Origin: an uncultured Bacilli bacterium
GTDB lineage: Bacteria > Bacillota_I > Bacilli_A > RF39 > UBA660
Direction: 5' to 3'
Assembly: GCA_944350315.1 (NCBI GenBank)
Contig: CALVON010000022.1
Coordinates: 9,281 to 73,280, forward strand
DNA: 64,000 bases
Part shown: piece by piece, positions 33,128-53,080 of the stretch
Position numbering within the stretch: the first letter of the stretch is position 1
Layout of the letters: the number at the start of each line of letters is the position of its first letter
The notes under the pieces: generated by a model
The model's database searches: none
Told to the model about the DNA's origin: nothing
The model's input: only the letters and a program-made list of their open reading frames with translations
Translations under genes and position numbers: made by a program

Positions 33128-33156
33128 AAAATATGTAATTATTAGTTACATATTTT
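33128..33156. terminator. Bidirectional terminator between convergent PBP and parB/noc-like genes
   Basis: AAATATGTAA-TTATTAG-TTACATATTT hairpin flanked by A and T runs. Confidence 0.55.
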
Positions 33157-34597
33157 ATAATTCTATTATAATACAGTGACCTGTATCATTATTATAAAGT
33201 TTATATTGAATTTGATTTTGATTTAAAAATTCTGTTACTTTAGTTAAATTATTTGTTGGTTCTTGTGTATTAGTTGTTACAGGAACTTCATAATTTGTTA
33301 AATCTGAAACTTGAGTCTGTGGTTCATTTTGATTTGGCTGTGTTTGAGTTTCAGATATAGAAAATAGTGGTGTATCTTGAACTATATTTTCTTGTATTGG
33401 TTGTTCTATGTTTGGCACATTTACAACTTCTTGGTTGAATAGCGGTGTATCTTGTGTACTTTGTTGTGAAGTATTTAAATTTTGATTAGCACTAACTTGT
33501 GAATTAATATCTTGATTTGACTGTTCTATATTTTGTTTTGGCATTTGATCCGCTTGATTTAAAGATGGTTCTTGTGGTGGTATAGTCTGTTGTGGTTCTT
33601 GTACTGAATTATTTACACCAATATTAAAATCTGGAATTGGATTTGTTGTAGAAAAATCAAATAATGGTTGTGTTTGTTCAATATTTTGCATAGATTGATT
33701 ATCTTGATTTTGTATGCCTGGTTGTGAAGACGGTTGCATAGGAGTTACATTTTGTGTCAATGATTCTCCTACTGGATTAGCCGTAGGCATTACTGTTTCA
33801 TTTATTGGTTGAGAATTAATACTTTGCATATTTAAAGTATTTAATGAGGCACTATTTGTTGGGTTCATTTGAGCATTATAGTTTGGAAAAAAGTTTCCAT
33901 TATTCATATTATCACTTTCCTTTTCTTCTTTTTTTGTTTCTTTACTACCAATTGAATTCATTATGTTACTAATAGTGGTTTCAATTGGAATTTTTTCATT
34001 ATTTTGTTTTTTAATAATTTCATTTAGTTCTTTAACAGATAATTTTTCATTAATTATTCTTTCTAACAATAATAATTTTTTTTCATTATCCAAAACACAT
34101 AATAGACTTCTAGCATGCCTTTCACTAATTTGTTGATTATTAAGCGCTTCTTTGATTTCTTTTGGTAATGTTAACAATCTTAATTTATTTGCTATTGTTG
34201 ATTGAGATTTTCCAATTTTATCTCCTAAATCTTTTTGTGTAACATTCGTAAGCTCTATTATTTGTTTAATAGATTCGGCTTCTTCAAGTGGGGTTAAATT
34301 TTCTCTTTGTAAATTTTCTATTAATGCCATTTCTGCCATTTTTATATCTTCAATATTCTTTATAATTGCCGGAACTTTTTTTAGGCCAATTTTTCTAGCA
34401 GCACGCCATCTTCTTTCTCCTGCTATTATTTCATATTTATCATTTGTTTTTCTTACTAATATTGGATTTATTATTCCATATTCTTTAATTGATTTAGCAA
34501 GACTATCTAATGATTCTTCATTAAATTCCTTCCTAGGTTGGTATTTATTTGGCATTAACTTATCTACATCGATTTCTATTATTTTTTCCTCTTGCAA
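33155..34597 (-). CDS. ParB/Noc-family CTP-switch DNA-binding protein with a Noc-type recognition helix and a long Q/N/P-rich C-terminal extension
   Basis: ParB N-domain boxes (YQPRK, GERRWRAA). HTH GKSQSTIANKLRLLTLP...ISERHARSLL. TTG start after AGAGGTGG, with an in-frame TAA 15 nt upstream. Residues ~215-450 are low complexity. The gene sits downstream of rsmG, the noc position in B. subtilis. Confidence 0.85.
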   Translation of the reverse strand: MQEEKIIEIDVDKLMPNKYQPRKEFNEESLDSLAKSIKEYGIINPILVRKTNDKYEIIAGERRWRAARKIGLKKVPAIIKNIEDIKMAEMALIENLQRENLTPLEEAESIKQIIELTNVTQKDLGDKIGKSQSTIANKLRLLTLPKEIKEALNNQQISERHARSLLCVLDNEKKLLLLERIINEKLSVKELNEIIKKQNNEKIPIETTISNIMNSIGSKETKKEEKESDNMNNGNFFPNYNAQMNPTNSASLNTLNMQSINSQPINETVMPTANPVGESLTQNVTPMQPSSQPGIQNQDNQSMQNIEQTQPLFDFSTTNPIPDFNIGVNNSVQEPQQTIPPQEPSLNQADQMPKQNIEQSNQDINSQVSANQNLNTSQQSTQDTPLFNQEVVNVPNIEQPIQENIVQDTPLFSISETQTQPNQNEPQTQVSDLTNYEVPVTTNTQEPTNNLTKVTEFLNQNQIQYKLYNNDTGHCIIIEL

Positions 34598-40838: not shown

Positions 40839-42599
40839 ATGTTTGAGAAAATTTTATCAATTACAAAAAATTATGCTATTGTTAAAATTATAAATAATAT
40901 TAATGATGACATATTAAATTATAATGTTATTCTTGAAGATAATTATAAAAAAATTTTAGGTGAAATTGATGAGATTATTAACGATGAAGTAAAAATTTCA
41001 TTTTTAGGTGAATTTATTAATGATAGATTTTATAGTGGAATAATTAGAAGACCTTCTTTATCTTCTACAGTTAGAATTATTAACAAACAAGAATTAGGAG
41101 AATTAGTTGGTGATAATGATAGTAGAACTATGATTCTTGGTCTTAGTCCTTTGTATAATAATTATCCAATAAAGATAAATATTAATGAAATGTTTAGTAA
41201 TCATATCGCTATTTTTGGAAATACAGGTTCAGGTAAGACTTGCGGTGTAGCAAGAATTATTCAAAATTTATTTAATATGAAAGATAAAGTTCCTTTTAAT
41301 GGAAATATATTTATATTTAATAATACTTCTGAATATGATTCCGCTTTTAGAGAAATTAATAAAATTAATAGTAATTTTAATTATAAATTGTATACAACCG
41401 ATAAAAGTAATTCTGATGGTGAAGAGATAAAGATTCCTTTATGGATTATGAGTGCTGATGATTATGCTAATTTATTAGATGTTACTGAATTTTTTCAAAT
41501 TAACATAATTGAAAAAATGTTAAGTATTGTTTCTATTTTTGCTAGAAATGATGAATATGCTAATAAATATAAAAATCATTTAATTGCTAAGGCAATAATT
41601 TCCGTTTTATATTCCAATCAGGTTCCTGCAAAAATAAGGGATCAAATTTTTAACATTTTACAAGACTGTTATACGAATGAAATTAATTTAGATGCTGAGG
41701 TTCCAGGAATAGGATATACTAGAGAATTTAGAAAATGTTTTGACATAGATAATAATGGTGATTTTGTAGAGAGAATATTAGTTACTAAATATATTCAAAG
41801 TTTTATTGTTAAAAATGAAAATTGGAATGAAGATTATGTTCCTATTTATTTTAATTTAGATCAATTAGAAAGTGCTTTGAATTTTACTCTAATCAGTGAA
41901 GGATTATTATTAAACGAAAAGTCTTATAGTGAAGCAATCGCTTTAAAAGTTAAATTACACTCTATAAACAATAGTTCAAATAAAAGATTTTTTGAAGTTA
42001 ATAATTTTATTTCGACTGAACAATTTATTAATTCTTTATTAACTACTAAAAATAATGGTAGGGCTCAAATTATAAATTTTGTTTTAGAGGATATTGATGA
42101 TCGTTTTGCAAAATCTTTGGTAAAAATATTATCAAGAATATTATTCAATTTTGTAAAAAAAATACAACCTAGAGGTGCTTTTCCAATTAATATTATGCTA
42201 GAAGAAGCACACAGATATGTTCAAAAAGATAGAGATACAGATATTTTAGGATATAATATTTTTGATAGAATTGCTAAAGAAGGAAGAAAATTTGGGGTAA
42301 TTATGAGTCTGATTTCTCAAAGACCTACAGAATTATCAGAAGTTGTTTTATCTCAATGTTCTAATTTTATTATTTTTAAATTAAATCATCCTAGTGATTT
42401 AGAATATATAAAGAAGATGGTACCAAATATTAGTTCTGATGTTATTGAAAAACAAAAATCCTTACAATCTGGAACTTGCGTTGTTTTTGGTAGAATAATG
42501 AGAATACCAATGATTGTTAAAATGCAAATGCCTAATCCAGAACCTCAAAGTTCAAATGCTTCTATATATGATAAATGGATGGTAGAACAAAAATATTAA
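40839..42599 (+). CDS. HerA/DUF87-like P-loop ATPase (HAS-barrel + FtsK/HerA-type ATPase), orphan
   Basis: 586 aa. Walker A FGNTGSGKT, Walker B-like INIMLEEAHRYV, and SLISQRPTELSEVVLSQCSNFIIFKL typical of DUF87/HerA. Extended -10 TGTTATAAT lies about 30 nt upstream. No NurA, SIR2 or nuclease partner adjacent. Confidence 0.7.
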   Translation: MFEKILSITKNYAIVKIINNINDDILNYNVILEDNYKKILGEIDEIINDEVKISFLGEFINDRFYSGIIRRPSLSSTVRIINKQELGELVGDNDSRTMILGLSPLYNNYPIKININEMFSNHIAIFGNTGSGKTCGVARIIQNLFNMKDKVPFNGNIFIFNNTSEYDSAFREINKINSNFNYKLYTTDKSNSDGEEIKIPLWIMSADDYANLLDVTEFFQINIIEKMLSIVSIFARNDEYANKYKNHLIAKAIISVLYSNQVPAKIRDQIFNILQDCYTNEINLDAEVPGIGYTREFRKCFDIDNNGDFVERILVTKYIQSFIVKNENWNEDYVPIYFNLDQLESALNFTLISEGLLLNEKSYSEAIALKVKLHSINNSSNKRFFEVNNFISTEQFINSLLTTKNNGRAQIINFVLEDIDDRFAKSLVKILSRILFNFVKKIQPRGAFPINIMLEEAHRYVQKDRDTDILGYNIFDRIAKEGRKFGVIMSLISQRPTELSEVVLSQCSNFIIFKLNHPSDLEYIKKMVPNISSDVIEKQKSLQSGTCVVFGRIMRIPMIVKMQMPNPEPQSSNASIYDKWMVEQKY

Positions 42600-42610
42600 T
42601 AACTTTTAAA

Positions 42611-42626
42611 TATTTCCCGGGAAATA
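42611..42626. promoter_or_regulatory. Perfect Noc-binding-site (NBS)-type palindrome TATTTCCCGGGAAATA
   Basis: 16-bp perfect palindrome identical to the published NBS consensus (ATTTCCCGGGAAAT core). The only CCCGGG in the 64 kb that I could find. Followed by a GGGAAAT half-site repeat and T6, so it may also act as the terminator of the herA-like gene. Confidence 0.6.
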
Positions 42627-42646
42627 ATTTGGGAAATATTTTTTAT

Positions 42647-42875
42647 TTATCAACAAAACTTGTTTGTTTTTTTTACTTATCAACAAGCACTGTTGATTTT
42701 TTTTATTCTATCAACAGGCATTGTTTATAACTTTTAATTACTTTTTCAACAAATTCTTATTTATCAACATGTTATGACACTTGTTGATAATTTTTTCAAC
42801 AAAAATAAAATTATATATAAATTTGTTGAAAACTCTTTTAATTACTTTATTTATATGGTATTATATTGTTGAAAA
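42647..42875. promoter_or_regulatory. oriC part 1: DnaA-box cluster upstream of dnaA
   Basis: Perfect TTATCAACA at 42647, 42677 and 42761 (+) and 42782 (-, TGTTGATAA). One-mismatch boxes at 42708, 42743 and 42793 (+) and 42824 and 42867 (-). Confidence 0.85.
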
Positions 42876-42979
42876 CTTGTTCATAACATGTTAATAACCT
42901 GTTTAAATAAAAAAAAATAATAGACAAATAAATTTTATATGTTAAAATAAAGTTGATGCTTGTAAGTGAGGTACTGTTT

Positions 42980-44341
42980 ATGAGTAATAAAGAACTGTGG
43001 GAAAAATTTTTAGAAAATATAAAAAATGAAATAACAAATGTTTCTTTTGATACATGGTTTAATGAAGAAGATACTAGGTTATATTCTTATGAAAATGATA
43101 TTGTAACAATTGTAGTTAGTCAGGAACTAATAAAGAAACATTTAGAAAATCATTATTTAGATATTATGACTGATGGAATGTCAAAAGTAACTAATTCTAA
43201 TGTCACTTTTAATATTATATTGGAAAGTGATATTGATAATTTTAAAAAAAAGCAAATAGATATTTCTTCTAATGATAAATTAGAGAAGCAATCTTCAATG
43301 AATGCTAATCTTAATCCTAATTATACTTTTGAATCTTTTATTGTTGGTAATAGCAATAAATTTGCTTATAAGGCTTCTAGAGTTATTGCTGAAGAACCAG
43401 GATCATATAATCCATTATTTTTATATGGTGAAAGTGGTGTTGGAAAAACACATTTAATGCATGCTATTGGAAATTATTTAATTGAAAATACCGATAAAAA
43501 AGTTCTTTATATTACTAGTGATAAGTTTGTTGATGAATATACAAGAATATTTAGATATAGTGATAAAAATAGTTTTGATAAAATAGATGCTTTTAAAGAC
43601 AAATATAGAAATATTGATGTTTTAATTATTGATGATATTCAATTTTTAAGTAATGCTCCAAAAGGTCAAGAAGAATTTTTCCATACTTTTAATGAACTTT
43701 ATAATTCTAATAAGCAAATCATTATTGCATCTGACAGATCTGTTGATGATTTAAATTCATTAGAAAATAGACTTTTAACAAGATTTAATTGGGGTCTTAC
43801 TGCAAACATTACAACTCCTGATTACGATTTAAGAGTTAGTATTATAAAAAATAAATTAGCTTTTAAAGAAGCTGTTAGTGATATACCTGATGATGTAATT
43901 GAATATATTGCTAATAATTTTGATTCTGACATTAGAAAACTTGAAGGAGCAATTACTAGAGTGTTAGCTTATTCTTCAATGTTTAGTAAAGGAAAAATTA
44001 CTTTAGATATTGCTGTTGAAGCACTAAAAGATCAATTAAAAGATCGAAGCTTTTATAAAAATGATGTTCAAAGAATTCAGAGAGTTGTTTGTGATTATTA
44101 TAAAATTAGTATTGAACAAATGAAAGGAAAAAATAGAAACAATTCTGTTAATTTTCCTAGACAAATAGCAATTTATTTATGTAGAGAATTGACAGATGAG
44201 TCTTTTCCTAAAATTGGATCTTATTTTGGTGGAAGAAATCATTCTACTATTATTAGTGCTGATCAAAAAATTAGAAAAGAACTAATTAATAATAATGATT
44301 TAAAAGAAGTTATTAAAGATTTAAAAAGGAGTTTGTCGTAA
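42980..44341 (+). CDS. dnaA: Chromosomal replication initiator protein DnaA
   Basis: AAA+ Walker A GESGVGKTHL, Walker B LIIDDIQF, and C-terminal DnaA-box-binding domain (FPRQIAIYLCRELT...GGRNHSTI). Start at the ATG after GTGAGG. Confidence 0.95.
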   Translation: MSNKELWEKFLENIKNEITNVSFDTWFNEEDTRLYSYENDIVTIVVSQELIKKHLENHYLDIMTDGMSKVTNSNVTFNIILESDIDNFKKKQIDISSNDKLEKQSSMNANLNPNYTFESFIVGNSNKFAYKASRVIAEEPGSYNPLFLYGESGVGKTHLMHAIGNYLIENTDKKVLYITSDKFVDEYTRIFRYSDKNSFDKIDAFKDKYRNIDVLIIDDIQFLSNAPKGQEEFFHTFNELYNSNKQIIIASDRSVDDLNSLENRLLTRFNWGLTANITTPDYDLRVSIIKNKLAFKEAVSDIPDDVIEYIANNFDSDIRKLEGAITRVLAYSSMFSKGKITLDIAVEALKDQLKDRSFYKNDVQRIQRVVCDYYKISIEQMKGKNRNNSVNFPRQIAIYLCRELTDESFPKIGSYFGGRNHSTIISADQKIRKELINNNDLKEVIKDLKRSLS

Positions 44342-44370: not shown

Positions 44371-44462
44371 TTATCAACAGAGAATGTTGATATTTAAGAC
44401 CTTTATATATATGTATTTATATAAGTTATCAACAGTTTCAACAACTATAATAATAGTAATAA
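44371..44462. promoter_or_regulatory. oriC part 2: DnaA boxes plus DnaA-trio-like repeats in the dnaA-dnaN spacer
   Basis: TTATCAACA at 44371 and 44426, TGTTGATAT at 44385 (-), GTTTCAACA at 44435. These are followed by TAA-TAA-TAG-TAA-TAA (44448-44462) and AT-rich DNA. Confidence 0.7.
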
Positions 44463-45778: not shown

Positions 45779-46228
45779 ATGTGCGAAATTGATTTATCAA
45801 CAGTTATGTTGATAGGAATTGATGATTATAATACTAAAATTATTAGTTATGAAAAAGAAGAAGTAATTAATAAAAATTCAAAAGAATTAATTAATTTATC
45901 ATGTAAATTTTTTGGTAGTAGTTTAAATGATAAGATTAGTGTAACAAAAAGATTAATAAATATTTCTTCAAAATCGCCAATTATTATAGAGGAATCTAGA
46001 AATATTATTTTTTTTCCATTAAAATCAACTAGAGAAAAAAATAATATATGGATATCTTTTAATAATTTAGAAAAGTATGAGAAAAATAATGATAATACAA
46101 TTTTATATTTTAAATGTGGAAAAATAGTTAAATTAAATTTTTCTTACTACATAATAGATAACCAAGTAACTAGAAGCTTAATTTTAGATTATGAATTGAA
46201 TAAAAGAAAAAAAAGTTTAGAAAAATAG
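45779..46228 (+). CDS. comK: ComK-family competence transcription factor (short form, 149 aa)
   Basis: By-eye alignment to B. subtilis ComK: SCKFFGSS vs SCRFFGSS, SKSPIIIEESRNIIFFPLKS vs SHKPPIMVDPSNQIFLFPTLS, NIWISF vs GWISH, IIDNQVTRS vs FENQVYRT. RBS AAGGAGGGGG. Confidence 0.75.
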   Translation: MCEIDLSTVMLIGIDDYNTKIISYEKEEVINKNSKELINLSCKFFGSSLNDKISVTKRLINISSKSPIIIEESRNIIFFPLKSTREKNNIWISFNNLEKYEKNNDNTILYFKCGKIVKLNFSYYIIDNQVTRSLILDYELNKRKKSLEK

Positions 46229-51933: not shown

Positions 51934-51975
51934 AACTCAATTATAATGTTCCACGTGGAACATTATAATTGAGTT
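51934..51975. promoter_or_regulatory. parS-1 (core 51947-51962) in a perfect 42-bp palindrome; also the gyrA terminator
   Basis: AACTCAATTATAATGTTCCAC|GTGGAACATTATAATTGAGTT followed by TTTTTTATTTTTTTTT. Confidence 0.85.
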
Positions 51976-52180
51976 TTTTATTTTTTTTTATAAAGAAATT
52001 TAAAGAATATTTATGTTAATAATTTATTATATTTATGTTTTTATATGTTGTAATATTTAATTTTTATATTTAATATTGTTTATATTATTATAATATTAGT
52101 TTATTTATATTCTGTTAGATATTATTATAGTTAATTTATTATCTTTATTTAATTTATTATAATGTGAAAATATATTATTC

Positions 52181-52340
52181 AAAAAAATTATTTTAGTTGT
52201 CAATTGTTAAATAATTATTTATGTGAATTACAATGTTCCACGTGGAACATTGTAATTTAAATTTTATTATTACAAATTTTGTTTATAAAATGTTTATATA
52301 TAAAGATTGTAATATTAAATTCATAATAAAATAATTATTT
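52181..52340 (+). repeat. Direct repeat unit A (~150 bp) containing parS-2
   Basis: Aligns by eye with 52826-52980. The central ~75 bp is near-identical (TGAATTACAATGTTCCACGTG[G/A]AACATTGTAATTTAAATTTTATTATTA...). Shared AAAAAAATTATTTTA start and ATTAAATT(C/T)ATAATAAAATAAT end. Confidence 0.7.
52226..52257. promoter_or_regulatory. parS-2 (core 52234-52249) in a perfect 32-bp palindrome
   Basis: AATTACAATGTTCCAC|GTGGAACATTGTAATT. Confidence 0.85.
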
Positions 52341-52359
52341 TATTTATATATATTTTCTT

Positions 52360-52379
52360 AATGTTCCACGTGGAACATT
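52360..52379. promoter_or_regulatory. parS-3 (core 52362-52377) in a perfect 20-bp palindrome
   Basis: AATGTTCCAC|GTGGAACATT. Confidence 0.85.
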
Positions 52380-52540
52380 CCAGTTGAAATTTTTTTCTCT
52401 AAAGAGTAAAAAAAATATTATATTATTTACAGTTGATTAAGTATTATTTTAGTTGTTTTATTATATATATTTAGTAAATAGTATATATTTTATACTATAT
52501 TTATTTAAATGCCGTGTTTTTACAATTCATGTAATATTAG

Positions 52541-52568
52541 TTATAATGTTCCACGTGGAACATTATAA
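52541..52568. promoter_or_regulatory. parS-4 (core 52547-52562) in a perfect 28-bp palindrome
   Basis: TTATAATGTTCCAC|GTGGAACATTATAA. Confidence 0.85.
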
Positions 52569-52610
52569 AATGCAGATAAAAATTTTTAATAAGTTATATT
52601 GAATTTATTA

Positions 52611-52639
52611 TTGCGTTTTTTGATATTTTAGTATATAAT
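52611..52639 (+). promoter_or_regulatory. Sigma-A-type promoter of ffs
   Basis: TTGCGT (-35), 17-nt spacer, TATAAT (-10). The predicted start at about 52646 coincides with the 5' end of the SRP RNA helix. Confidence 0.5.
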
Positions 52640-52645
52640 TATGTT

Positions 52646-52716
52646 GTGCAACAATAATATAGAAATCAAGTCAGGATCGGAAGATAGCAGCTTTAACTAT
52701 TAATTATTGTGTGCAC
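52646..52716 (+). ncRNA. ffs: Small (4.5S-like, ~71 nt) signal recognition particle RNA
   Basis: Domain IV motif AAGUCAGGAUCGGAAGAUAGCAGCUU (compare GUCAGGUCCGGAAGGAAGCAGC) with a GGAA tetraloop closed by AUC/GAU. Closing helix GUGCAACAAUAAU / AUUAUUGUGUGCAC, followed by T5. Position upstream of tadA-dnaX approximates the B. subtilis tadA-scr-dnaX region, although scr lies between tadA and dnaX there. Confidence 0.75.
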
Positions 52717-52748
52717 TTTTTATATGTTCCACGTGGAACATATAAAAA
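52717..52748. promoter_or_regulatory. parS-5 (core 52725-52740) in a perfect 32-bp palindrome abutting the ffs 3' end
   Basis: TTTTTATATGTTCCAC|GTGGAACATATAAAAA. Confidence 0.85.
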
Positions 52749-52825
52749 TAAACGTCAATTAATATTTTTTAATTAATTTATTTAAAATTATTATTATGTG
52801 TATTTAAATTGTTATAATATAAAAT

Positions 52826-52980
52826 AAAAAAATTATTTTAATTATTAAATTGATATTTATATGAATTACAATGTTCCACGTGAAACATTGTAATTTAAAT
52901 TTTATTATTATAATTCTTGTTTATTACAGGTTGATGTATAGAAAATATAGTATTAAATTTATAATAAAATAATATATAAT
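52826..52980 (+). repeat. Direct repeat unit B (~150 bp) containing parS-6
   Basis: Partner of 52181-52340. Confidence 0.7.
52864..52895. promoter_or_regulatory. parS-6 (core 52872-52887, TGTTCCACGTGAAACA)
   Basis: AATTACAATGTTCCAC|GTGAAACATTGTAATT. One arm mismatch yields the asymmetric B. subtilis-type parS. Confidence 0.85.
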
Positions 52981-53048
52981 ATTTGTAAAATATGTATAAC
53001 ATTTTTTTTGTTGTGTTAAATTTGTGCTTTTAGATTTTATAAATATAT

Positions 53049-53080
53049 TTATTTAATGTTCCACGTGAAACATTAAATAA
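53049..53080. promoter_or_regulatory. parS-7 (core 53057-53072, TGTTCCACGTGAAACA)
   Basis: TTATTTAATGTTCCAC|GTGAAACATTAAATAA. One arm mismatch. Confidence 0.85.

What the first reader, a model, noticed from the sequence alone, without database searches (positions are those of the whole stretch)
42611..42626. A perfect 16-bp Noc-binding-site palindrome sits at the edge of oriC
TATTTCCCGGGAAATA is identical to the B. subtilis NBS consensus. It differs from parS only at the two symmetric positions that discriminate Noc from ParB. It is the only CCCGGG I found in this roughly 70+% AT window. It lies 11 nt after the herA-like stop and about 20 bp before the first DnaA box. It matches the Noc-type helix of the protein at 33155-34597. 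A GGGAAAT half-site repeat and T6 follow, so the element may double as a terminator hairpin. An NBS placed right at the origin, alongside a parS array 9 kb away, raises the question of which sites this organism's single ParB/Noc protein actually loads on.
Basis: partly seen in the sequence, partly recalled or inferred. Interest (0 to 1): 0.6.

Follow-up and report, generated by a model that had tools for sequence, protein, structure and literature searches.

The report
Noc-binding site beside the replication origin
The 16-bp palindrome is a genuine, conserved docking site for a Noc-type (ParB-family) DNA clamp, placed at the border of the DnaA-box cluster next to dnaA in an uncultured AT-rich gut bacterium whose Noc-like protein lacks the usual membrane anchor and whose relatives keep such sites around the origin rather than across the chromosome.

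Summary
TATTTCCCGGGAAATA lies at 42611-42626 and is the only CCCGGG in the window. It starts 11 nt after the herA-like stop and ends 20 nt before the first of 12 DnaA boxes. About 1e-5 exact copies are expected by chance.

It is a real Noc-binding site (NBS), not only a terminator. Seven of 10 congeneric genomes keep it at this spot (two of the seven with one mismatch). Most of those also carry a separate terminator upstream of it.

The cognate protein (33155-34597, minus strand) is closest to solved Noc structures. Its specificity residues are Q, K, T, R, which published mutational data predict to be NBS-specific. It lacks Noc's N-terminal membrane helix and has a roughly 230-aa low-complexity insert.

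In this AT-rich clade about 80% of sampled NBS blocks lie next to origin genes or parS arrays, against about 10% in mid-GC contigs. NBS and parS arrays are often interleaved. NBS are absent where the Noc-like gene has decayed, yet parS arrays persist there. A separate ParB is therefore likely, so the "single ParB/Noc" premise is unproven.

In this species the left NBS half pairs with a downstream GGGAAAT copy plus a T-run to form the herA terminator.

One caveat: GC skew does not flip at this presumed oriC.

Verdict: a new variant of a known kind.

The parts
42611..42626 (.). Perfect 16-bp NBS palindrome TATTTCCCGGGAAATA
   Evidence: Expected count by chance is 1.2e-5. Conserved at the same place in L003, L005, L006, L007, L072, and with one mismatch in L002 and L008.
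42631..42644 (+). Third arm (second GGGAAAT, 42631-42637) followed by T6 (42639-42644)
   Evidence: The same NBS-plus-third-arm composite recurs at other loci in relatives: 15 of 105 NBS in the dnaA-centred loci have one.
42608..42646 (+). Predicted intrinsic terminator of the herA-like gene. The 5' arm is the left NBS half, the right NBS half sits in the loop, the 3' arm is the third arm, and a U-run follows.
   Evidence: It is one of only 2 terminator-like sites in 5 kb, against 0.5 expected. The RNA minimum-energy fold is -13.2 kcal/mol, z = -3.07. No transcript 3' end data could be obtained.
40839..42599 (+). herA-like (DUF87/FtsK-type) ATPase gene transcribed toward the DnaA-box cluster
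   Evidence: Pfam DUF87. NCBIfam HerA models score far below their cut-offs. The gene sits directly upstream of dnaA in all 10 closest relatives, in conspecific contigs and in a more distant relative, L248.
42647..42897 (.). Cluster of 12 DnaA-box-like 9-mers (TTATCAACA, at most 1 mismatch) upstream of dnaA
42980..44341 (+). dnaA
   Evidence: Pfam Bac_DnaA, DnaA_N and Bac_DnaA_C. The same start was called in public assemblies.
44371..44462 (.). dnaA-dnaN spacer: 3 DnaA boxes (44371-44434), then an AT-rich TAA/TAG trinucleotide run (44448-44462) that may be the unwinding region
   Evidence: Boxes. Sequence. The resemblance to DnaA trios is my reading of the sequence and was not tested.
33155..34597 (-). 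Noc-type ParB-family protein (480 aa), encoded directly downstream of rsmG. It has a CTPase N-domain (GERRWRA, ENLQRE) and an HTH with Q/K/T/R at the four specificity positions. It has no Noc N-terminal helices. It carries a roughly 230-aa Q/N/P-rich insert and a C-terminal dimerisation-like end.
   Evidence: with PMC7383237 and PMC8429893.
51947..53072 (.). Array of 7 parS sites (TGTTCCACGTGGAACA/...GAAACA) between gyrA and tadA, each inside a longer palindrome
   Evidence: This is context for the finding, since a different ParB-type protein is predicted to bind it.

Best explanation
The palindrome is a functional Noc-binding site, that is, the loading site for the Noc-type, CTP-dependent ParB-family clamp encoded 8 kb away at 33155-34597.

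Proposed mechanism:
- A dimer recognises the two half-sites. Q at position 173 reads the A and R at position 201 reads the C that distinguish NBS from parS. K179 supplies the permissive backbone contact.
- The dimer then binds CTP, closes into a clamp and slides onto flanking DNA.
- Because the site lies 20 bp from the first DnaA box, the clamps are delivered straight onto the dnaA-upstream DnaA-box cluster and the dnaA promoter.

In this clade NBS sites are concentrated around the origin, often interleaved with parS arrays, and the protein lacks Noc's membrane-targeting helix. The system therefore most likely organises or regulates the origin region rather than acting as a chromosome-wide membrane tether.

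In this species the site has a second, RNA-level role. Its left half pairs with a downstream GGGAAAT copy and is followed by a U-run, which gives the herA-like gene its only terminator and shields the DnaA boxes from read-through.

Shown: sequence identity, positional conservation, the protein's family and residues, and the origin-focused distribution in relatives. Inferred: binding itself, spreading, and the effect on initiation or origin organisation.
For: 1. Exact 16/16 match, with 1.2e-5 copies expected by chance.
2. In 7 of the 10 closest relatives (DnaA 79-83% identical; one of these contigs covers only part of dnaA and none of this spacer) the site sits 330-418 bp upstream of dnaA. It lies 10-40 nt before the first DnaA box (78 nt in L008). 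Anchored on the site, the core shows a majority-base fraction of 0.98 against 0.57 in the flanks.
3. Most of these relatives carry a separate canonical terminator between herA and the NBS, so termination does not explain the palindrome.
4. The protein scores best against Noc: NCBIfam nucleoid_noc 269 bits against parB_part 198, and PDB Noc 7NFU/7NG0/7OL9 181-205 bits against ParB about 169.
5. Q173, K179 and R201 are present. Published mutational scanning says Q173 reads A1, R201 reads C6, one K at 179 or 184 is enough, and R173 is invariant in parS binders.
6. 105 perfect 14-mers occur in 1.45 Mb of dnaA-centred loci from relatives, 86 of them outside any ORF of 110 aa or more.
7. NBS occur in 12 of 18 loci with an intact Noc-type gene and in 0 of 10 with a degenerate one (Fisher p = 9e-4).
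8. Origin focus: 98 of 120 genome blocks holding the 22-bp extended form carry origin genes or parS. In a flank-unbiased 16-mer scan of metagenome contigs, 33 of 40 AT-rich blocks of 4 kb or more were origin-linked against 2 of 18 mid-GC blocks (p = 3e-7).
9. Precedent: S. aureus Noc has a minor peak at the dnaA promoter, restrains initiation and spreads 8-10 kb.
10. Terminator.
Against: - No binding, spreading or 3' end data exist for this organism. The only metatranscriptome hit was sparse, and one contig runs through the hairpin.
- Only one NBS lies in the 64-kb window. Three of 10 close relatives (L001, L004, L009) lack it, so it is not indispensable.
- The protein falls below the NCBIfam Noc cut-off (269 < 315) and lacks the Noc-specific N-terminal helices. 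What it does after loading cannot be inferred from Bacillus Noc.
- The co-occurrence statistic in point 7 ignores phylogenetic non-independence.
- The 'oriC' label is weakened because GC skew does not switch here.
Confidence: 0.7

Rival explanations
1. It is only a GC-clamped intrinsic terminator of the herA-like gene, and the identity with the NBS consensus is a coincidence.
For: The hairpin-plus-T-run scan and the RNA fold both call a terminator here. GC-containing palindromes are natural stem seeds in 25% GC DNA.
Against: - The predicted terminator stem uses the third arm, not the right NBS half, so the perfect palindrome is surplus to termination.
- Relatives keep the exact 16-mer behind their own separate terminators.
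- The chance expectation is 1.2e-5.
- The same 14-16-mer recurs hundreds of times in the clade in unrelated contexts, including arrays.
Confidence: 0.03
2. It is a real NBS but positionally incidental. Noc-type sites are tolerated only in the scarce intergenic DNA of this compact genome, and this one merely happens to lie beside the DnaA boxes, with no effect on the origin.
For: - Three of 10 congeners lack it.
- More distant relatives place NBS at other junctions instead: recF-gyrB, jag-mnmE, rsmG-noc, after gyrA and after dnaX.
- Nearly all NBS are intergenic.
Against: - About 80% of sampled NBS blocks in AT-rich contigs are origin-linked, against about 10% in mid-GC contigs. This is far more than a preference for intergenic DNA can explain.
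- Clamps loaded 20 bp from the boxes would cover them if spreading resembles the 8-10 kb seen for Noc.
Confidence: 0.17
3. The organism has only this one ParB-family protein, and it loads on both the NBS and the parS array (dual specificity), having taken over ParB's role after soj-spo0J were lost.
For: - No second ParB-like gene and no ParA lie in the window or within +/-10 kb of dnaA in 80 relatives.
- Sister clades still have noc-like, soj and spo0J in a row, so the canonical pair was lost from this locus.
- A search seeded with those Spo0J proteins returned no contig from the relatives' MAGs.
- NBS and parS are interleaved in tandem units in some genomes without soj-spo0J at the noc locus, for example L060.
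Against: - Q173 plus R201 is the NBS-specific combination. R173 is invariant among parS binders, and dual binders mostly carry T or S at 201.
- parS arrays persist in lineages whose Noc-like gene has lost GERR and the HTH.
- The Spo0J search was cut at 600 candidates and 80 loci, so absence is not shown.
- S. aureus shows that a Firmicute without ParA can keep both ParB and Noc.
Confidence: 0.1

Closest known systems
Noc-NBS nucleoid occlusion system of Bacillus subtilis and Staphylococcus aureus
   Same: - The 16-bp site is identical.
- The protein is closest to solved Noc structures and has the ParB-type CTPase motifs.
- Q173, K179 and R201 are present.
- The gene lies directly downstream of rsmG (gidB), as noc does.
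   Different: - The N-terminal amphipathic membrane helix, helix alpha2 and the loop that are specific to Noc are absent: query residue 3 aligns to Noc residue 25.
- A roughly 230-aa Q/N/P-rich insert is present.
- Position 184 is T rather than K.
- Sites in this clade cluster at the origin instead of being scattered over the origin-proximal half to two-thirds of the chromosome.
Minor Noc site in the dnaA promoter region of S. aureus, and Noc's restraint of replication initiation (Pang et al. 2017, PMC5540599)
   Same: A Noc-type site lies directly beside dnaA and the DnaA boxes, so there is a precedent for Noc influencing initiation.
   Different: - The S. aureus site is a weak peak among 41 chromosome-wide sites. 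Here it is a perfect consensus site and the only one in 64 kb.
- The mechanism in S. aureus is post-translational and unresolved.
- Nothing has been measured in this organism.
ParB-parS centromere arrays near oriC
   Same: - Origin-proximal palindromes load a CTP-dependent sliding clamp.
- In relatives, NBS form tandem arrays in the same gyrA-tadA spacer as parS, sometimes alternating with them within a repeat unit of about 80-125 bp.
   Different: - The bases at positions 2 and 7 of each half-site are A and C, not G and A.
- The protein has Q173 and R201, not R173 and G201.
- It lacks the N-terminal ParA-interaction peptide seen in sister-clade Spo0J.
Intrinsic (Rho-independent) terminators
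   Same: An A-run, a 13-14-bp stem with 3 G-C pairs, and a U-run, placed directly after a stop codon.
   Different: The stem is built from a protein-binding half-site and an extra copy of its partner. The true palindrome partner is looped out. Relatives separate the two functions.

Membership tests
NBS (Noc-binding site) | 16-bp palindrome TATTTCCCGGGAAATA (core ATTTCCCGGGAAAT) | tested here: met
   16/16 match at 42611-42626. The consensus is taken from PMC7383237.
NBS (Noc-binding site) | A protein with the Noc-type recognition residues is encoded in the same genome | tested here: met
   Q173, K179, T184 and R201 in the protein at 33155-34597. One K at 179 or 184 is sufficient according to PMC7383237.
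NBS (Noc-binding site) | Many sites scattered over the origin-proximal part of the chromosome and absent near the terminus | tested here: inconclusive
   Only 64 kb of this genome is visible, and it holds one site. In relatives and in AT-rich metagenome contigs the sites are recurrent but tightly origin-linked. This departs from the Bacillus and Staphylococcus pattern.
NBS (Noc-binding site) | Bound by Noc in vivo or in vitro, with CTP-dependent spreading | not testable with these tools
   Needs ChIP-seq or biolayer interferometry with purified protein.
Noc protein family (NCBIfam TIGR04285) | ParB N-terminal CTPase domain with GERRxRA and ENLQRE, plus the ParB HTH | tested here: met
   Pfam ParB_N 126 bits and HTH_ParB 107 bits. 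The motifs GERRWRA and IENLQRE are present.
Noc protein family (NCBIfam TIGR04285) | Scores above the curated family cut-off | tested here: not met
   269.4 bits against a cut-off of 315. Only profile positions 1-200 of 255 match.
Noc protein family (NCBIfam TIGR04285) | N-terminal amphipathic membrane-targeting helix alpha1, with alpha2 and the linker loop | tested here: not met
   The ORF cannot start further upstream. Residue 3 aligns to residue 25 of Noc 7NFU. Bacillus-type Noc fetched in the same scan have the MK..FSRFFGLG start, whereas all low-GC MAG orthologues have only about 20 residues before the QPR motif. PMC8429893 names these elements as Noc-specific.
Noc protein family (NCBIfam TIGR04285) | Gene lies directly downstream of rsmG (gidB) in the rnpA-yidC-jag-mnmE-mnmG-rsmG block | tested here: met
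parS (ParB centromere site) | TGTTNCACGTGAAACA, with G at position 2 and A at position 7 of each half-site | tested here: not met
   The site has A and C at these positions. The real parS sites are the 7 at 51947-53072.
Intrinsic terminator | Stable stem-loop followed at once by a U-run, at the 3' end of a gene | tested here: met
   (stem 42608-42641, T6 at 42639-42644, -13.2 kcal/mol, z = -3.07).
Intrinsic terminator | Transcript 3' ends map to the U-run | tested here: inconclusive
   Only sparse metatranscriptome contigs were found, and one spans 42539-42694.
Bipartite Firmicute oriC | DnaA-box clusters on both sides of dnaA, in the rpmH...dnaA-dnaN context | tested here: met
   12 boxes at 42647-42897 and 3 at 44371-44434. 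Gene order is given.
Bipartite Firmicute oriC | GC-skew polarity switch at the origin | tested here: not met
   The dnaA-sense strand is G-rich at third codon positions on both sides of dnaA, in the window and in 49 relatives. Bacillaceae and Clostridia controls behave normally.

The most novel reading that the evidence does not exclude
In this uncultured AT-rich gut Bacilli clade, Noc may have been repurposed. It has lost its membrane helix and gained a long disordered insert, and its binding sites have collapsed onto the origin region. There they sit in arrays interleaved with parS or, in this genus, directly on the border of the DnaA-box cluster. On this reading the protein acts as a second origin-specific clamp system that organises or gates the origin, for example by restraining initiation or biasing fork direction, rather than as a nucleoid occlusion factor. 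The missing GC-skew switch at dnaA in the same clade would then hint at unusual origin behaviour linked to this system.
Probability: 0.3. Interest if true: 0.75.

Novelty: new variant of a known kind. Interest (0 to 1): 0.55.

Why it matters
Noc is understood as a membrane-tethering nucleoid occlusion factor whose sites are scattered over much of the chromosome. This locus gives a natural variant with the same DNA code but no membrane helix, and with sites focused on the origin and mixed with parS arrays.

If confirmed, it would show a second function for the Noc branch of CTP-dependent ParB clamps. It would give a clean natural system for asking how two paralogous clamps share one stretch of DNA. 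It would also bear on the unresolved link between Noc and replication initiation seen in S. aureus.

It matters for annotation too. These proteins fall below the Noc family cut-off and would be named generic ParB, which suggests a parS binder that the residues do not support.

Tried and rejected
- **Chance.** Rejected by the expectation of 1.2e-5 copies and by the recurrence of the motif.
- **Terminator only.** Rejected because relatives have separate terminators and the fold loops out the right half-site.
- **Within-species conservation.** Six conspecific metagenome contigs are 98.7-100% identical to the window. The NBS is invariant, but there is too little divergence to be informative.
- **Transcript 3' ends.** One metatranscriptome run held 5% of the sampled words, as contigs only, so no ends could be mapped.
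- **Second ParB or ParA.**
  - tblastn with remembered B. subtilis Spo0J and Soj sequences found only the one ParB-like gene and no ParA.
  - A GTDB scan seeded with sister-clade Spo0J proteins returned only other clades. It was cut at 600 candidates and 80 loci, so it is inconclusive.
  - Looking up the protein at the left end of the window showed 3.8 kb of flanking DNA with a serine recombinase and a NERD protein, and no ParB. The protein at the right end is not on record.
- **Terminus near the convergent point at about 24 kb.** No dif-like site was found.
- **Other palindromic operators.** I compared the site from memory with operators such as the CodY box AATTTTCWGAAAATT. The half-sites do not fit, and I ran no test.
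- **Third arm as a general feature of NBS.** It is enriched (15 of 105 sites) but comes mainly from a few orthologous positions.

Full report
**1. Observation**

The window reads TATTTCCCGGGAAATA at 42611-42626. Allowing up to 3 mismatches finds no other copy in 64 kb. CCCGGG occurs once, against 0.24-0.28 copies expected. From base composition the exact 16-mer is expected 1.2e-5 times.

The herA-like ORF ends at 42599, so the gap before the site is 11 nt. The first TTATCAACA box starts at 42647, so the gap after it is 20 nt. A second GGGAAAT lies at 42631-42637 and a T6 run at 42639-42644.

Seven parS sites (TGTTCCACGTGGAACA, or ...GAAACA in two of them) lie at 51947-53072. The 16-mer equals the published NBS. 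It differs from canonical parS at two positions per half-site (PMC7383237), and from this organism's own parS at three.

**2. Locus**

The gene order is that of a Firmicute origin region:
- On the minus strand: rpmH, rnpA, yidC, jag, mnmE, mnmG, rsmG, then a ParB-family gene (33155-34597).
- On the plus strand: herA-like (40839-42599), dnaA (42980-44341), dnaN, a comK-like gene, recF, gyrB, gyrA, the parS array, tadA and dnaX.

Twelve DnaA-box-like 9-mers fill 42647-42897, and three more lie in the dnaA-dnaN spacer. An AT-rich TAA/TAG trinucleotide run follows them (this is my reading). The NBS is therefore the leftmost element of the dnaA-upstream box cluster.

The organism is an uncultured gut bacterium with 25% GC. 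Its nearest genomes are MAGs labelled uncultured Bacilli, Tenericutes or Erysipelotrichaceae, with DnaA at most 83% identical. From memory of the names CAG:302, CAG:321 and CAG:914, I believe this is the RF39 group. That assignment was not tested.

**3. Terminator or binding site?**

The scan calls a terminator at 42608-42641 plus a T-run, one of two such sites in 5 kb against 0.5 expected. The RNA minimum-energy fold (-13.2 kcal/mol, z = -3.07) pairs AAAUAUUUCCCGG with UUGGGAAAUAUUU. That is the left NBS half paired with the second GGGAAAT copy. The right NBS half is left in the loop.

Termination therefore does not need the perfect palindrome. The relatives settle the question. All 10 closest genomes that cover this spacer have herA-like directly upstream of dnaA. 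Seven of them carry the NBS: L003, L005, L006, L007 and L072 perfectly, and L002 and L008 with one mismatch each. In these the site lies 330-418 bp before the dnaA ATG and 10-40 nt before the first DnaA box (78 nt in L008).

Most of them have their own separate hairpin-plus-T-run between the herA stop and the NBS. Anchored on the site, the 16-bp core has a majority-base fraction of 0.98 and the flanks 0.57. L001, L004 and L009 have only a terminator and no NBS.

The NBS is thus an independent, selected element. In the window's species it has also been recruited, through a third arm, as the only herA terminator.

**4. The protein**

The 480-aa product has ParB_N and HTH_ParB domains. It scores 269 bits on NCBIfam nucleoid_noc, below the cut-off of 315 and matching profile positions 1-200 only. 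It scores 198 bits on parB_part. Its best solved relatives are Noc structures (7NFU and 7NG0 at 205 bits, 7OL9 at 181). ParB and Spo0J follow at about 169 bits.

The four specificity positions read Q173, K179, T184 and R201, in GKSQSTIANKLRLLTLP...SERHAR. Jalal et al. report the following:
- Q173 reads the A and R201 reads the C that distinguish NBS from parS.
- One lysine at 179 or 184 is sufficient.
- R173 is invariant in parS binders.
- Dual binders mostly carry T or S at 201.

The prediction is therefore NBS-specific binding.

The protein nevertheless fails a defining Noc feature. Its residue 3 aligns with Noc residue 25, so the amphipathic membrane helix alpha1, helix alpha2 and the loop are missing. 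The ORF cannot be extended upstream, and public gene calls agree on 480 aa.

A Q/N/P-rich segment of about 230 aa separates the DNA-binding part from a C-terminal end that resembles the ParB/Noc dimerisation domain (my reading). All low-GC MAG orthologues share the short N-terminus and a long tail. Bacillus-type Noc fetched in the same scan begin with MK..FSRFFGLG and are about 280-300 aa long.

**5. The clade**

*Density and placement.* In 80 dnaA-centred loci (1.45 Mb) there are 105 perfect ATTTCCCGGGAAAT copies. Of these, 86 lie outside any ORF of 110 aa or more.

*Conserved positions.* Relatives at about 60% DnaA identity lack the oriC-edge site but keep NBS elsewhere:
- at the recF-gyrB junction;
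- directly after gyrA, beside the parS array;
- at two spots 6-8.5 kb upstream of dnaA.

Further scans add the jag-mnmE and rsmG-noc junctions and a position after dnaX.

*Arrays.* Several genomes have NBS arrays next to or alternating with parS, for example 13 NBS with 12 parS at an 80-bp period in L060 (one of the 13 with a single mismatch), and also L013, L036, L243, L293 and L352.

*Co-occurrence with the protein.* NBS occur in 12 of 18 loci whose Noc-type gene is intact. They occur in 0 of 10 whose orthologue has lost GERR, ENLQRE or the HTH (p = 9e-4, not corrected for phylogeny). Nearly all of these loci that reach past gyrA, including all 10 with a degenerate gene, keep parS arrays.

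Of these, 98 carry origin-region genes or parS. That pattern could favour array copies, so I ran the bare 16-mer over metagenome contigs. Among blocks of 4 kb or more, 33 of 40 with GC below 0.30 are origin-linked. Only 2 of 18 with GC 0.36-0.50 are, which is the scattered pattern expected for Bacillus-like genomes (p = 3e-7).

In this clade, then, Noc-type sites are origin-focused.

**6. One ParB-family protein or two?**

The window and all 80 dnaA-centred loci hold a single ParB-like gene and no ParA. Sister MAG clades have noc-like, soj and spo0J in a row, and their Spo0J carries R173, G201 and the N-terminal ParA-interaction peptide. The window's lineage has noc-like alone.

A scan seeded with those Spo0J proteins returned no contig from the window's relatives. 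It was truncated, however, so it proves nothing.

Three points favour a separate parS binder outside the window:
- the residue logic in section 4;
- the survival of parS arrays where the Noc-like gene has decayed;
- the S. aureus precedent of a Firmicute without ParA that keeps both ParB and Noc.

I put this at about 70%. The dual-specificity reading stays open at about 10%.

**7. Mechanism**

Most likely the Noc-type dimer nucleates on the NBS, binds CTP, closes and slides. This is shown for B. subtilis Noc, where it is strictly NBS-dependent. Noc signal spans 8-10 kb around sites in S. aureus.

Loading 20 bp from the first DnaA box would put clamps on the box cluster and the dnaA promoter. 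Without the membrane helix, classical nucleoid occlusion is unlikely, since a Noc variant lacking the helix is impaired in it. An origin-organising or initiation-modulating role fits better with the origin-focused sites and with the S. aureus observations of a minor Noc peak at the dnaA promoter and over-initiation without Noc. These functional steps are inference.

**8. Caveat on 'oriC'**

GC skew does not change sign here.

| Gene set | Third-position, coding-strand GC skew |
|---|---|
| Window, genes right of dnaA | +0.56 |
| Window, plus-strand genes at 1-24 kb | +0.30 |
| Window, minus-strand genes at 24-42 kb | -0.075 |
| Window, the two plus-strand genes among them (PBP, herA-like) | +0.37 |
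| 49 relatives, upstream minus-strand genes | -0.12 |
| 49 relatives, upstream plus-strand genes | +0.40 |
| 49 relatives, downstream plus-strand genes | +0.53 |
| Bacillaceae / Clostridia controls, noc-sense genes | +0.21 / +0.35 |
| Bacillaceae / Clostridia controls, opposite-strand genes | -0.09 |

The controls show the normal pattern for the same gene block. In the MAG clades the dnaA-sense strand is G-rich on both sides of dnaA.

Three readings remain open: the skew switch lies more than 43 kb to the left, replication is effectively one-directional, or another mutational bias dominates. No dif-like site is in the window. This is unexplained and deserves a closed genome.

**9. Verdict**

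The finding is real and correctly identified as an NBS. Its terminator role is plausible but secondary. Its placement at the DnaA-box border is conserved within the genus.

The wider result is that this clade has a Noc-type system that departs from the known one in two defining respects: there is no membrane helix, and the sites are origin-focused and intermixed with parS. I file it as a new variant of a known kind. The 'single ParB/Noc' puzzle is probably an artefact of seeing only 64 kb.

Noticed in passing
window 1-64000; relatives L001-L080 and L082-L160: GC skew does not switch polarity at the dnaA-flanking DnaA-box clusters. The dnaA-sense strand is G-rich at third codon positions on both sides of dnaA, in the window and in 49 relatives. 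Bacillaceae and Clostridia controls show the normal flip. Fifteen plus-strand genes at 1-24 kb converge on the minus-strand block at about 24 kb, and no dif-like site was found.
   Followed up: partly
window 51947-53072: Each of the 7 parS sites sits inside a longer perfect palindrome of roughly 26-46 bp. The first follows the gyrA stop directly and is followed by a T-run, so it looks like the gyrA terminator. A small SRP RNA gene (52637-52732, Rfam 58.6 bits) lies inside the array, and its 3' end overlaps the parS palindrome at 52725-52740.
   Followed up: partly
L060 19102-20066; also L013, L036, L242, L243, L293, L352, L392, L434: Tandem arrays in which NBS and parS alternate within one repeat unit of about 80-125 bp, or lie in adjacent blocks, always between gyrA and tadA/dnaX. 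L243 comes from a closed 1.52-Mb MAG that also encodes Soj and Spo0J.
   Followed up: partly
window 33878-33937 (aa 221-240 of the Noc-like protein) and about aa 215-450: A short motif, EEKESDNMNNGNFFPN[YF]N, is nearly invariant in the genus and recognisable in L064 and L069. It lies at the start of the long Q/N/P-rich insert. It may be a docking motif that replaces the lost membrane helix.
   Followed up: partly
L010, L025, L029, L032, L041, L046, L047, L056, L069, L080 (gene downstream of rsmG): In sister lineages the Noc-like orthologue has decayed. GERR has become GN(K/R)R, ENLQRE is lost, and the HTH is altered or missing. These loci have no NBS but keep 2-11 parS sites.
   Followed up: yes
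window 40839-42599; L001-L009, L072, L248: A stand-alone HerA/FtsK-like P-loop ATPase gene, with no NurA or defence partner seen, is fixed between rpmH and dnaA and is transcribed toward the DnaA boxes. The arrangement holds across the genus and in at least one more distant relative. It scores far below the NCBIfam HerA cut-offs.
   Followed up: partly
L012 14448, L014 14614, L018 14615 and many others; L299 7651, L332 5511, L336 1459: There are other conserved NBS positions in relatives. One overlaps the last codons of recF, just before the gyrB ribosome-binding site. Another lies in the rsmG-noc spacer directly upstream of the Noc-like gene, which suggests autoregulation.
   Followed up: partly
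window 45779-46228: A ComK-family gene (Pfam 107 bits) sits between dnaN and recF, inside the core replication operon region.
   Followed up: no
L487 1121-3507 (DNA just left of the window in a conspecific contig): A large serine recombinase and a NERD/zinc-ribbon protein lie immediately left of the window's first gene. This may be the edge of a mobile element.
   Followed up: no
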